A stretch of 64,000 bases of DNA, taken from contig JAGIQG010000001.1 of assembly GCA_024679065.1 (NCBI GenBank), positions 87,482,001-87,546,000 of the forward strand. The letters run 5' to 3'. Under the pieces are notes generated by a model. It searched no databases. It was not told the DNA's origin and saw only the letters and a list, made by a program, of their open reading frames with translations. The position numbers and the translations under genes are program-made. The stretch is from Sphyrna mokarran (taxonomy: Eukaryota). Each line of letters opens with the position of its first letter. The stretch's first letter is position 1. This document shows positions 34,001 through 37,943 of the stretch, in pieces.

Positions 34001-37000
34001 CTTGCTCCAGTACATTTCCCTGGGCATTAGGTGTCTCTAGTACCTTGACCAAATGAGAATTTGTATAATAATTCTGGCCAGAGTGTCAAATTTTTGTTCC
34101 TATAGGCATATGGTGACTTGTCCCAGTCCATCTGCCCCATACTATAAGGCTAATAGAAACAGTACTCTTAATTTCTTCCTTTTGCATAAACCAGAGACTA
34201 ATATTGTAATTGTTGCTAGCTTAACATCAGCCTTGTATCTTCATGTTTGTGTGTATAGGTATACTCCATTAACAGAGTTTCCATTAGCCTTCATGATCCT
34301 GAAACCTGATTCCAGACCCAAAAAAAACCTAAATAAGAACAATGTTTGGCAGCATCTATGGGGAGAGAAATGGTTAATGTATCAGGTTGATTCAGTGTTT
34401 AGTGTTTTGCTCCAACTGTAACTTCAACTTGGAATACTACAGTGAAGATTTTCCTAAACTTCCCCAAATTTGGAGCGTCATTGATGTCATAGCTAAAATG
34501 TTTTTCAAAATAAAAAAAATCATCCATTTTAAATCCTGATGAGCAAATAGTTTGAAGTAAGTCATTTCAACAGTATTGGGCTGAATGTCTAAAGCATGTC
34601 CTGACTTTTTTCTGTTTTTCAAACCTAGGGTTTCCGTTACAAGATGAGATCAGTGTATGCTCATTTCCCCATTAACGTGGTTGTTCAGGAAACAGGATCT
34701 CTGGTAGAAATCCGTAACTTCCTGGGAGAAAAATATATTCGTAGAGTTCGTATGAAGCCAGGTGAGTGAAGCAAGCATTAATTTCTGCGAACATTTTTAT
34801 GGAGAAAGGTAACCTTTGTAACCTCTCCCTGTTCCTTTCTTTTTGAATCAGGTGTTTCATGTATAGTTTCCCAGGCACAGAAGGATGAGCTTGTCCTTGA
34901 GGGAAACGACATTGAACTTGTGTCAAATTCTGGTTAGTATTCTACAGTCAAGTTGGACTGCCAAACCATTGAAAAACTTGGAATAGAACTGGAAGTATAT
35001 TGGTGACTGACTCCTTGACCCTCTTTTTATAAACTAACTAGCAAGAGTGAAAAGTCATAACTTTTCATGGATGCAGGTGATGTCGCTGTGAACATTTGTA
35101 TAGGGAAAAGGAATACTTGAAGTAAAAGCTTATTAATTATATTTTGCCTCTATTTCATAAATTGTTTCTGTGCTATCTCTATGGCCTGCCCCTTCATGAT
35201 CTCAGCCCTACTTTTTTCATCATGTCAGTTCAAATGTTTTTTAAAACTCAACTTGGTTAACTTATCTTTTTTAAAATCACCTATTGAACCATAATTTTTA
35301 TCCAATTTCTACAGTCTTAAAAAATCTTGCCACAATTACCTTGCTTGACTAAGGTGGTTGGCAGCACATGAGTTCTAAAATGATTCTTATCAGTGCATTG
35401 TTCAATGTCCTCCTCTGTCTGCTAACATTTATAGCAATGTGGCTGATTCTTAACTGACCTGCAGTGGCTCAGCAAGGAGCTCTGTTCCAGCATAAAATGC
35501 TGACACTATGGCTATGATGCCTCCAATCCATGAAAGAATATTTTAAAACTGAGAACTCGAGGCTTTGGGAGCTCTCTTCACTGATAGTTCTTCTGCTTTA
35601 TATTTTTCCTTTTCTATTCTATTTTGTAATTGAGCATAGCTCCCTTGAGTTATGCTGACTGCTGTGCTTTTCCATCTATTTCCCCAAAAAGTCTCATTTT
35701 AATTTTCCTCAATGTGTTTAAATTTCAATTTGCTTCCTCAAATGGTAGTTCTATTGACGTATTGCAATTCTTGCAGCTCTAGAAGCGAGTGGAAAAATTG
35801 TTACTTGATGTATTAATAACTTCTATTCCTACCTTTCAGGTAACTTGTAGACATGGAACCAATGGGTATAAGTATGGTGCTTCCCCTTTATGCAGTTGAA
35901 GGCAAAATTTGTGAAGACTGCTAATGCAGCAAATTGTTTCATCAGTGAAATGTCCTGGGTTTTGACTGCCTGTAAAATTAGTTGTCTCCTTTATCATGAT
36001 TTGAGGTGAAGCTCAGTGATCAGATCAGTTGCTCTATCTTCTGATCTAATCCAGAGGCTAGCCTTTAGCTGCTTCAGGAATTCATTCATGTCTTCAGTAA
36101 CTTTGATTAGAATCAATTTTCTTTCTCAAATTTTTCAATTTTCTTTTAGTACACAAATCTTCAGATTAATAATTAAGATTGGATGATTCTCTGAGGAAAT
36201 ACTGAAGAACTTCAGCACTTGAGTGTTTAATGCAAATTTGATACATCCTCAAGGATAGTAATGATGTATAATCTGCATTCCTCAAAGAAGTATCTGATAT
36301 CCTAGTTCTCCTCTATTCTTTTCCCAGCTCTTTTCCTAGCTGAGTTTACCAGCTCATTTGAATAGTCTTGCACCTGATGTAGTTTCTTTACCATACCATA
36401 ACCTTTTTAAAACTTGCTTTGGTTTCTCTATCCTTTATTAGAAAGTGTTTCCTACTTTGCATACTTAGTCTATCATGGCACATTTATGTTGATAGATATG
36501 GCAGTGATGTACATTGCTCACTGGCTTCTGTTTTGTTGTTTTGCTTTCTCAATCCATCACCAAGCCTTATAGATGATGCTGGAAGGTGAAATCTTGATGT
36601 GGTGATTCAAAACTTAAACCAATACAGTATTGCTCACCCCCTCTCTTTCTTTAATGCTAGTTTTCTGGTTATCCTGTTGTCGAAATTGTGAAATCTTCAA
36701 CTGATTTTAATTGGCTTAACTTAATTTTTAAAGTTGCTTATTTTGGCTAAACTCTTAAGTTGTCATTGACTACCTAATGTTTCTAATTGGCAACTTAAGA
36801 GCTTCTTGCAATTGCAGTATGATTTGTGCTGTCTTTAGTTTCCCTTTTCAGCTCCTGTTTGCATGATGCATCTTTTGGGTTAATTTTCCTGCATGGGTTA
36901 TTTATTTTCTAGCTGCCCTGATTCAACAGGCAACAACAGTCAAAAACAAGGATATCCGAAAATTCTTGGATGGTATTTACGTCTCTGAGAAGGGTGCAGT

Positions 37001-37919
37001 TGTTGACACCTCAGCATAGACATAATGGATTAAAGGTTAGCAGTGCCTTGTCTTCTCCACTGGAGCAGACGTGTAGGAAGCATCCTCCTTTCCAGAGCAT
37101 GTGGCAAATATTAAGTTTTTACTTATAAATCTCTAATGACAAAGCTTTAGAGTTCAATTAAAAAGCAAGGTGATGCAAAAGTATGAATAGTGGAGCAAAT
37201 AGTTCCTTAATTTTTGATGTCACTAAATATTGACTTATTTGTGAAATGATCAGGTATAGGTTCCAACATAGTCTTGAAATTTGTTGTCTTGAGTTTTCAC
37301 AAAATAATACTGTTGTCTTGTTTAATCAATCCATAAGTTGAAAAATTCTGTTTTCCAGATCATGCAATCCTTGTAAGCAAAGTGGAAAATAGATTCTCTC
37401 AATCTTTTGAGAATCTTGATGTGGGAATTTCAGTAAAGTAGCTAGTATGATTTATAAATTTGACTACATTCTGTATAATGAAACCAGCTAGGGGGAGCTG
37501 AAAAGAAATGCCATTAATGGTCATTGGTGGAAATTAAAATGTTTATTCCACAAATTTAACAATATAAATGTGGTAATATTAGGTGGGTAATTTTCTAGCT
37601 GTAGAATGCAAGTGCTTTTTTCTGTTCAAAAGCTATTTTAGTAGTTTTGTGCTTAATAGAAACAATTGTTTTTTCCTTCTAAATTTTTAAAAATTTGCTT
37701 TTCCAAGGCTATAGAGAATGTTGTAAAAAAAAAAAAATTGAAGCTTCAGCATCACCTTGCTGTTTTACTGAGCTTAGATATTTCTAACTTGTAGTTTGTC
37801 TTCTCTTAGCTGCTCTCATTCAACAAGCAACAACAGTGAAAAAGAAGGATATTCGTAAATTCCTGGATGGCATCTATGTGAGCGAAAAGACCACTGTGGT
37901 TCCACAGTTTGCTGAATAA
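30995..37919 (+). CDS. RPL9: 60S ribosomal protein L9 (uL6): join 30995-31040, 31133-31248, 33836-33931, 34629-34761, 34852-34932, then either 36913-37019 (192 aa) or 37810-37919 (193 aa)
   Basis: In-frame GT-AG splicing gives [49 protein letters not shown]...[42 protein letters not shown]...[15 protein letters not shown]. Confidence 0.98.
31133..31248 (+). CDS. RPL9: RPL9 exon 3
   Basis: TTTACAG acceptor, GTAAGA donor, 116 nt, [11 protein letters not shown]. Confidence 0.97.
31361..31552 (+). ncRNA. Candidate structured intronic RNA (H/ACA sno/scaRNA-like or cis-regulatory)
   Basis: Nested stems, a UGAG terminal loop, and ANANNA/ACA motifs (see findings). Confidence 0.3.
32570..32826 (-). 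mobile_element. tRNA-derived SINE (V-SINE/HE1-like)
   Basis: Minus strand begins gcagcatggtagcacagtggttagcagtgctgcc (A box) with a gttcaattcc-like B box; sister copies elsewhere in the window. Confidence 0.75.
33836..33931 (+). CDS. RPL9: RPL9 exon 4
   Basis: CCAAG acceptor after a pyrimidine tract, GTAAGT donor, 96 nt, [32 protein letters not shown]. Confidence 0.97.
34629..34761 (+). CDS. RPL9: RPL9 exon 5
   Basis: CCTAG acceptor, GTGAGT donor, 133 nt, [18 protein letters not shown]...[12 protein letters not shown]. Confidence 0.97.
34852..34932 (+). CDS. RPL9: RPL9 exon 6
   Basis: ATCAG acceptor, GTTAGT donor, 81 nt, [18 protein letters not shown]. Confidence 0.97.
36913..37019 (+). CDS. 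RPL9: RPL9 terminal coding exon copy A ([35 protein letters not shown])
   Basis: TTTTCTAG acceptor in phase 1, intact frame, TAG stop, followed by an AAG|GTTAG donor at 37036. Confidence 0.93.
37810..37919 (+). CDS. RPL9: RPL9 terminal coding exon copy B ([36 protein letters not shown])
   Basis: CTAAC branch point 37784-37788, TCTTCTCTTAG acceptor in phase 1, intact frame, TAA stop, AATAAA 19 nt downstream. Confidence 0.92.
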
Positions 37920-37937
37920 CTCTACTCTCAAACCATT

Positions 37938-37943
37938 AATAAA
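37938..37943 (+). terminator. Polyadenylation signal after RPL9 exon copy B
   Basis: AATAAA followed about 20 nt later by a GT/T-rich downstream element (gtcttgttgttttatttt). Confidence 0.8.

What the first reader, a model, noticed from the sequence alone, without database searches (positions are those of the whole stretch)
36913..37943. RPL9 has two tandem, intact, alternative terminal coding exons, giving two uL6 C-termini from one gene
Seen: after exon 6 (phase 1) there are two paralogous exons, each with an AG acceptor, an open frame and a stop. A = [35 protein letters not shown] (192 aa protein). B = [36 protein letters not shown] (193 aa). Across the 26 aligned core codons I count 13 synonymous differences, including a TCT/AGC serine codon-family switch, and only one replacement (N/K). 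The flanking introns show no visible similarity. B has a CTAAC branch point, AATAAA and a GT-rich element. Known: human RPL9 is annotated with a single such exon, as I recall, and uL6 lies near the sarcin-ricin loop/factor-binding region. Inference: this is an old exon duplication with both copies under purifying selection, so ribosome heterogeneity could arise by splicing instead of by paralogous genes. I cannot tell from here whether it is already annotated in other non-mammalian vertebrates.
Basis: partly seen in the sequence, partly recalled or inferred. Interest (0 to 1): 0.87.

Follow-up and report, generated by a model that had tools for sequence, protein, structure and literature searches.

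The report
Fish ribosomal protein with two tails
In this shark-like genome the gene for the core ribosomal protein RPL9 carries two intact copies of its last coding exon, and including or skipping the first copy gives two different protein tails; both tails recur in cartilaginous and ray-finned fishes, likely from one ancient duplication whose second copy land vertebrates appear to have stopped translating.

Summary
Both copies are intact (13 synonymous codons, 1 replacement). Copy A is not a terminal exon. It is a 123-nt stop-carrying cassette exon (36913-37035) spliced on to copy B. The A>B joint appears in 4 of 4 runs laid, exon 6>A in 1 and exon 6>B in 2. Six retrocopies in the genome carry exon 6-A-B; one carries exon 6-B. 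So B is the 3' UTR when A is included (192 aa) and codes the tail when A is skipped (193 aa). Both tail types occur in chimaera, electric ray, sharks and many teleosts; B-type also in sturgeons. NCBI already labels them isoforms X1/X2. Named tetrapod proteins with a tail were A-type (68 of 68), and human RPL9 keeps an intron 10 nt after its stop, likely the relic. Ten literature searches found no description of the duplication; one zebrafish preprint mentions unspecified Rpl9 isoforms in ribosomes. Tissue regulation (two RBFOX-type motifs before A) and any functional difference between the tails are untested.

The parts
29761..29785 (+). RPL9 exon 1 (pyrimidine-rich 5' end, non-coding; start approximate)
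   Evidence: CpG-rich region and GT donor; the 5' end of retrocopy L009 resembles it by eye
30994..34932 (+). RPL9 coding exons 2-6 (30994-31040, 31133-31248, 33836-33931, 34629-34761, 34852-34932), codons 1-157 plus one base
   Evidence: AG/GT boundaries and open frame; exon 5>6 joint in run X2
36749..36804 (+). Predicted 16-bp hairpin upstream of A with two CTAAT in its loop; role unknown
   Evidence: z -3.56, 0 of 200 shuffles; chosen after seeing it
36860..36895 (+). Two TGCATG (RBFOX-type) motifs at -53 and -23 from the A acceptor
   Evidence: none within 150 nt of the other 5 acceptors; 3 such pairs within 60 nt on both strands of the window
36913..37035 (+). Exon A (exon 7): 123-nt cassette exon, codes residues 158-192 (N169, G185), stop 37017-37019, then 16 nt of UTR with ATTAAA at 37029
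37036..37809 (+). 774-nt GT..AG intron between A and B
   Evidence: joint in 4 of 4 runs; copies starting exactly at its GT lie on contig C771
37151..37176 (+). Left arm of a predicted long-range stem; covers ATTAAA at 37157
37749..37774 (+). Right arm of the predicted stem, about 10 nt before B's CTAAC branch-point motif (37784-37788)
37810..37960 (+). Exon B (exon 8, last exon; end approximate): codes residues 158-193 (K169, T185) when A is skipped, 3' UTR when A is included; stop 37917-37919; AATAAA 37938

Best explanation
RPL9 here has a tandemly duplicated last coding exon, and the upstream copy A is a stop-carrying cassette exon that is either included or skipped, giving mRNAs for a 192-aa or a 193-aa uL6; the duplication likely arose once before cartilaginous and bony fishes split, and the choice is likely regulated by tissue or stage. 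Shown: inclusion gives exon 6-A-B, where translation stops in A and B is 3' UTR; skipping gives exon 6-B, where B codes the tail. Inferred: both mRNAs end at B's poly(A) signal. The stop lies 16 nt before the last junction, so the A form would escape classical nonsense-mediated decay. Both proteins are likely built into ribosomes, differing at residue 169 (N/K), often 168 and 185, and in a flexible 7-8 residue tail. RBFOX-type motifs before A would favour skipping where RBFOX activity is high (nerve and muscle, recalled). Tetrapods likely fixed inclusion of A and let B decay into the non-coding eighth exon.
For: Joints exon 6>A (X1, depth 7362), exon 6>B (X2 2124, X4 1771), A>B (X1 6125, X2 459, X4 344, X12 10), all GT..AG, in 4 studies. 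Retrocopies: 6 of 9 loci carry exon 6-A-B, 1 carries exon 6-B (3 of 3 diagnostic sites), 2 are cut off at B's start. Purifying selection between copies. Both tail types in one species for Callorhinchus, Narcine, Salarias, Neoarius, Gadus, Astyanax, Paramormyrops and Cyprinus; gene models with the A copy upstream of the B copy in Dissostichus, Bagarius, Metynnis, Gambusia and Scortum. All 31 rows labelled A by N169 also have G185 and a 35-residue exon product, and form one side of a branch (89/76). Zebrafish and human RPL9 have 8-exon transcripts with an intron 11 and 10 nt after the stop (PMC7310861 supplement file 3). Zebrafish ribosome proteomics saw alternative Rpl9 isoforms (PMC11383705). 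Synteny LIAS-RPL9-GH1 gene marks this as the parent locus.
Against: The runs are only guessed to be RNA, tissues are unknown, and contig depth is not a measure of expression; the difference between X1 and X2/X4 (A about 18% and 16% by depth) could be species rather than tissue. No single run listed all three joints. The tree has 36 columns: the A branch is not starred, B as a clade is neither shown nor rejected (p 0.48), and a separate cartilaginous-fish duplication is not rejected (p 0.13). Site 169 toggles outside jawed vertebrates (hagfish K, lamprey N), and 7 of 30 B rows have G185. The RBFOX layout was not shown conserved: the one teleost locus has the motif before B, not testable before A; 3 of 12 A-type intron read-throughs were compatible with it. 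The test of the primate 3' UTR as a B relic was not significant (141 and 334 of 2000 shuffles). Yeast uL6 paralogs are interchangeable (PMC6678285). PMC11383705 does not say which Rpl9 isoforms and states one variant dominated more than 10-fold.
Confidence: 0.72

Rival explanations
1. The two tails are functionally equivalent. B is kept intact only because A is often skipped and the skipped mRNA must still make a working uL6; no specialised ribosomes result.
For: The differences are small and mostly in a coil tail of low predicted confidence. Tetrapods manage with A alone and only B-type proteins were seen for three skates. Yeast uL6 paralogs complement each other (PMC6678285).
Against: A and B keep distinct signatures across cartilaginous and ray-finned fishes (N169 with G185 and 192 aa, against K169 and mostly 193 aa), which equivalence does not predict.
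Confidence: 0.35
2. The switch matters at the mRNA level: including A lengthens the 3' UTR by about 125 nt and leaves an exon junction after the stop, which would tune stability, translation or localisation of RPL9 mRNA.
For: The intron stays 10-16 nt after the stop in human, zebrafish and this genome even where B appears non-coding. PMC7310861 reports that some stop-proximal 3' UTR introns sensitise transcripts to decay.
Against: That paper finds the effect strongest at 36 nt or more from the stop. It does not explain the amino-acid constraint on B.
Confidence: 0.2
3. Cartilaginous and ray-finned fishes duplicated the exon independently and converged on similar tails.
For: A clade of all cartilaginous-fish copies is not rejected (p-AU 0.13); synonymous sites are saturated (a teleost B matches shark A at 61 and shark B at 58 of 78 nt).
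Against: Same order (A then B), same signatures, same stop-proximal intron, and a best tree 18.9 log-likelihood units better without that constraint.
Confidence: 0.08
4. A and B are alternative terminal exons, each with its own poly(A) site, at least as a minor route.
For: ATTAAA at 37029 and 37157.
Against: A>B joints in 4 of 4 runs; 6 of 6 retrocopies with A continue into B and none fits read-through after A better.
Confidence: 0.04
5. The second exon is an assembly artefact or a dead pseudo-exon.
For: None found.
Against: Contigs from related organisms cover both exons and the intron between them; retrocopies, selection signal and homologues in many species.
Confidence: 0.01

Closest known systems
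Tandem duplicated exon substitutions with homologous C-termini (PMC9741552, passages read; PMC8373072, listing and supplement search)
   Same: Ancient tandem exon copy giving isoforms that differ only in a homologous C-terminal segment; 77 of 236 human events are C-terminal swaps.
   Different: Here the upstream copy is a stop-carrying cassette spliced on to the downstream copy, so both copies sit in one mRNA and share a poly(A) site. It is in a core ribosomal protein; 'ribosom' occurs 0 times in the main text of PMC9741552.
RPS24 alternative splicing (PMC4114680 and PMC11162997, passages read)
   Same: Cassette splicing near the 3' end changes the C-terminal residues of a core ribosomal protein; tissue-specific in human.
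   Different: RPS24 uses non-homologous microexons and changes only the last residues. RPL9 swaps a whole duplicated 35-36 residue segment (helix end, loop, strand, tail).
Genes with a stop-proximal 3' UTR intron (PMC7310861; passages and supplement file 3 rows)
   Same: RPL9 is listed for zebrafish (11 nt) and human (10 nt); this genome has 16 nt.
   Different: Here the exon after that intron is a second coding copy, which gives the intron an evolutionary origin.
Ribosomal protein paralog pairs such as yeast uL6A/B or vertebrate RPL22/RPL22L1 (PMC6678285, PMC11383705, passages read)
   Same: Two versions of one ribosomal protein.
   Different: One gene, one promoter; the choice is by splicing.

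Membership tests
Eukaryotic uL6/RPL9 | Sequence and fold of uL6 | tested here: met
   Exon B matches 52 PDB uL6 sequences; a model of the chimaera B form (P0149, not the window's own protein) superposes on vertebrate uL6 at TM 0.94-0.96
Eukaryotic uL6/RPL9 | Parent locus in conserved neighbourhood (LIAS and KLB; human order recalled) | tested here: met
   LIAS_N and radical SAM hits upstream, three GH1 hits downstream, among 100 of 332 open frames scanned
Tandem duplicated exon substitution | Two homologous exons in tandem, same phase, both intact | tested here: met
Tandem duplicated exon substitution | Each copy is joined to the common upstream exon in RNA | tested here: met
   exon 6>A in X1, exon 6>B in X2 and X4; retrocopies of both forms
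Tandem duplicated exon substitution | Both protein forms exist | not testable with these tools
   No proteomics here; PMC11383705 mentions unspecified Rpl9 isoforms
Mutually exclusive exons | Only one copy is present in a mature mRNA | tested here: not met
   A and B are joined in one mRNA (retrocopies); exclusivity is at protein level through A's stop
Alternative last exons | The upstream exon ends at its own poly(A) site | tested here: not met
   A>B joint in 4 of 4 runs and 6 of 6 A-containing retrocopies; a minor route cannot be excluded from contigs
Poison exon (splicing-coupled decay) | Stop more than 50 nt before the last junction, product unproductive | tested here: not met
   Stop is 16 nt before the junction and the product is the canonical vertebrate uL6
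RBFOX-regulated cassette exon | UGCAUG motifs in the flanking intron | tested here: met
   Two motifs at -53 and -23; upstream binding goes weakly with repression in PMC3967051
RBFOX-regulated cassette exon | Motifs conserved across species | tested here: inconclusive
RBFOX-regulated cassette exon | Inclusion responds to RBFOX level or tissue | not testable with these tools
   Tissues of the runs are not given
Specialised ribosomes | Composition difference changes what or how ribosomes translate | not testable with these tools
   No functional data

The most novel reading that the evidence does not exclude
Jawed fishes have kept, since their common ancestor, a tissue-regulated splicing switch that builds two functionally different ribosome populations by swapping the C-terminal segment of uL6 at the GTPase-associated centre; tetrapods lost it, and the 3' UTR intron of human RPL9 is its fossil.
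Probability: 0.22. Interest if true: 0.85.

Novelty: new variant of a known kind. Interest (0 to 1): 0.58.

Why it matters
In human, RPS24 was reported as the only ribosomal protein with tissue-specific splicing (PMC4114680), and whether ribosome heterogeneity is functional is still argued. RPL9 offers a clean test in zebrafish: one gene, one promoter, two conserved tails on a protein of the GTPase-associated centre (PMC6678285), and splice-site edits can force either form without changing gene dosage. It would also explain why human RPL9 has an intron just after its stop. The isoforms already sit in NCBI annotations, which lowers surprise; the duplication, the cassette mechanism, the phylogenetic range and the likely tetrapod loss were not found in print by my searches.

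Tried and rejected
No RNA holder on record was listed; the runs laid are guessed RNA, and parts without cover (34500-34900 in three runs) say nothing. Rfam: 0 matches at gathering score in the window and 5 weak matches below it in 34900-38000, so no hosted snoRNA was found. Metagenome scan: 80 loci, none with two copies; 35 had 1 kb or more on both sides; all but one looked non-vertebrate by sequence, and the teleost-like one (L024) holds B with 942 nt upstream and no A, so no vertebrate locus with both exons was obtained. Long-range stem in the A-B intron: 13-bp perfect core reached in 8 of 500 shuffles and in 5 of 82 real tiles; whole-intron fold z -1.0; not repeat-derived as far as one search shows, conservation untested, kept as a lead only. 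Primate 3' UTR as a B relic: read-through peptides of ape-named and unnamed retrocopies align in frame to the K169 loop and fit B better than A, but not significantly. Peptide tree: low power; rows left out were Xenentodon B, Triplophysa B and two unnamed invertebrate-type rows. No protein named coelacanth, lungfish, gar or bichir appeared in the listed rows, so the timing of loss is open. Literature: 10 searches gave no description of a duplicated RPL9 exon; subscription journals are not covered; figure 2A of PMC11383705 could not be seen and its supplement held one rpl9 row without isoform names; the one supplement file of PMC8373072 held no RPL gene name. Earlier scan notes: nothing. No complex prediction was run.
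Full report
1. The observation. The window holds an eight-exon RPL9 gene between LIAS-type and glycoside-hydrolase-1-type exons. 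Its first 157 residues match shark and skate uL6 at 153 positions, so the genome is likely an elasmobranch; I did not identify it further. After exon 6 (ends 34932, phase 1) lie two homologous exons, A at 36913 and B at 37810, giving 192- and 193-aa proteins. Of 26 core codons 13 differ synonymously and one by N/K; pS 0.76 against pN 0.049, p 5e-9. The flanks are unalike.

2. A is a cassette exon. Sixteen bases after A's stop is a GT donor (37035/37036). Contigs of four public runs from four studies, guessed to be RNA, were laid on 34500-38500 (4 of 22 listed runs). The joint A>B was listed in all four, exon 6>A in X1, and exon 6>B in X2 and X4; all have GT..AG ends. In X12 low-depth contigs have exon-6-like loose ends before both A and B, beside a deep contig that differs at 10 places and is probably another species. 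No run listed all three joints. By contig depth A would be in about 18% and 16% of molecules in X2 and X4 and dominant in X1, but depth is a poor measure and organism and tissue are confounded.

3. Retrocopies agree. Two searches of the own genome (lower bounds) gave 9 distinct retrocopy loci. Six carry exon 6-A-B with exact junctions (C113, C668, C738 twice, C1215, C1326), with 11-15 of 14-16 diagnostic sites A-like directly after exon 6. One (C1437) carries exon 6-B, 3 of 3 sites B-like, before it breaks off. Two start at B. None fits read-through after A better than A-B. Two further copies of the A-B intron itself start exactly at its GT.

4. Range. Protein searches and cluster look-ups (tails printed in 21, 29, 57, 58, 78, 84) show both types in chimaera, electric ray, sharks (A in Heterodontus/Carcharodon, Heptranchias, Scyliorhinus; B in Rhincodon) and teleosts from Paramormyrops to Salarias; B-type in sturgeon and paddlefish; only B-type seen in three skates. 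NCBI names B 'isoform X1' and A 'isoform X2' in Narcine, Salarias, Neoarius and Gadus, among others. Five teleost gene models run A into B in that order. All 31 rows labelled A by N169 also have G185 and 35 residues; of 30 B rows 23 have T or S at 185 and 7 have G. Of 74 tetrapod-named proteins 68 have the tail and all 68 have N169; of 30 more, 19 are KN, 1 KS and 10 did not match the pattern. This sample came mostly from an A-type query and 90% clustering hides isoforms; two unnamed amniote-like rows have K169 with an A tail. Lampreys show N169/T185 and hagfish K169/A185 in the single forms seen; their loci were not examined. The tree puts A on one side of a branch (89/76, not starred) and cannot reject separate duplications (p 0.13). 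One duplication in the jawed-vertebrate stem is the simplest reading and is an inference.

5. Human relic. Supplement file 3 of PMC7310861 lists zebrafish rpl9 and human RPL9 transcripts of 8 exons with an intron 11 and 10 nt after the stop, the architecture of the A form here. Ape-named retrocopies whose stop is lost read on into the UTR with a K-x-D-x-R pattern in B's frame; the score is not significant. The relic reading rests on exon architecture.

6. How it likely works. Shown: include A and translation ends in A, with B as UTR; skip A and B codes the tail. Inferred: one poly(A) site at B, no classical decay, both proteins in ribosomes. A model of the chimaera B form has helix 151-164, loop 165-177, strand 178-185 and a coil tail whose last residues have pLDDT near 50. 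So residue 169 is in the loop and most differences are in the tail; rRNA contacts were not examined. PMC6678285 places uL6 in the GTPase-associated centre next to the sarcin-ricin loop, and finds yeast paralogs interchangeable. Candidate regulators: two TGCATG at -53 and -23 of A, absent before the other five acceptors, in the position that goes weakly with RBFOX repression (PMC3967051); a hairpin with branch-point-like motifs upstream; and a stem that would hide an intronic ATTAAA and bring A's donor near B's branch point (duplex -29.7 kcal/mol). None was shown conserved.

7. What is known. It works like the tandem duplicated exon substitutions with C-terminal swaps (PMC9741552) and, in outcome, like RPS24 splicing (PMC4114680, PMC11162997). 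It fails the tests for mutually exclusive exons, alternative last exons and poison exons. Ten searches found no paper on the duplicated exon. PMC11383705 (section 6, passages, supplement search) reports alternative Rpl9 isoforms in zebrafish ribosomes without naming them and says one variant dominated; its figure may bear on novelty and could not be seen. Papers seen as passages: PMC9013439, PMC9741552, PMC11162997, PMC4114680, PMC8647923, PMC7310861, PMC3967051, PMC6678285, PMC7671327; PMC8373072 as listing and supplement search only.

8. Verdict. Real, conserved and expressed; mechanism corrected to a stop-carrying cassette exon; present in automated annotation but apparently undescribed. 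New variant of a known kind, interest 0.58. Confidence is about 0.95 for the splicing architecture, about 0.8 for a single ancient origin, about 0.5 for tissue regulation and about 0.25 for a functional difference between ribosomes.

Noticed in passing
L019:1051-1676 and L020:1042-1675 (G000 contig C771), matching window 37036-37671: Two copies (97% alike, about 19 kb apart) of the RPL9 A-B intron, 92-93% identical, starting exactly at the intron's GT with unrelated flanks and no poly(A) or clear target duplication; likely a reverse-transcribed excised intron.
   Followed up: partly
L020:1-99 and window 5271-5369: 99 bases 100% identical between the two places, likely a young repeat.
   Followed up: no
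P0020, P0024, P0151 (skates): Only B-type uL6 was seen for Leucoraja, Amblyraja and Rhinoraja; skates may use B as the main form or have lost A, the reverse of tetrapods.
   Followed up: no
P0043 (Lucifuga dentata gene model): The downstream copy looks degraded compared with other teleost B exons, a possible independent loss.
   Followed up: no
P0003, P0105, P0325, P0338: Automated gene models fuse RPL9 exons, often B, to neighbouring WDR19 or RFC1 genes; the extra exon misleads gene predictors.
   Followed up: no
window 34903-37837: Contigs cover both introns flanking A in X1, X2 and partly X4, and cover ends near B's poly(A) signal; a weak hint of slowly spliced pre-mRNA, not quantifiable from contigs.
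   Followed up: no
window 36138-36276: 139 bases absent from the contigs of X2 and X4 (ends AT..GC), a likely species-level insertion or deletion in intron 6.
   Followed up: no
window 29939-29992: Retrocopy L006 begins with sequence matching this stretch (83% over 54 nt), suggesting an alternative 5' exon or start.
   Followed up: no
window 59662-60454: Two short frames with reverse-transcriptase (RVT_1) hits, likely a broken LINE-type element.
   Followed up: no
window 3767-21188 and 52401-56935, minus strand: LIAS-type exons upstream and glycoside hydrolase family 1 exons (likely beta-klotho, name recalled) downstream.
   Followed up: partly
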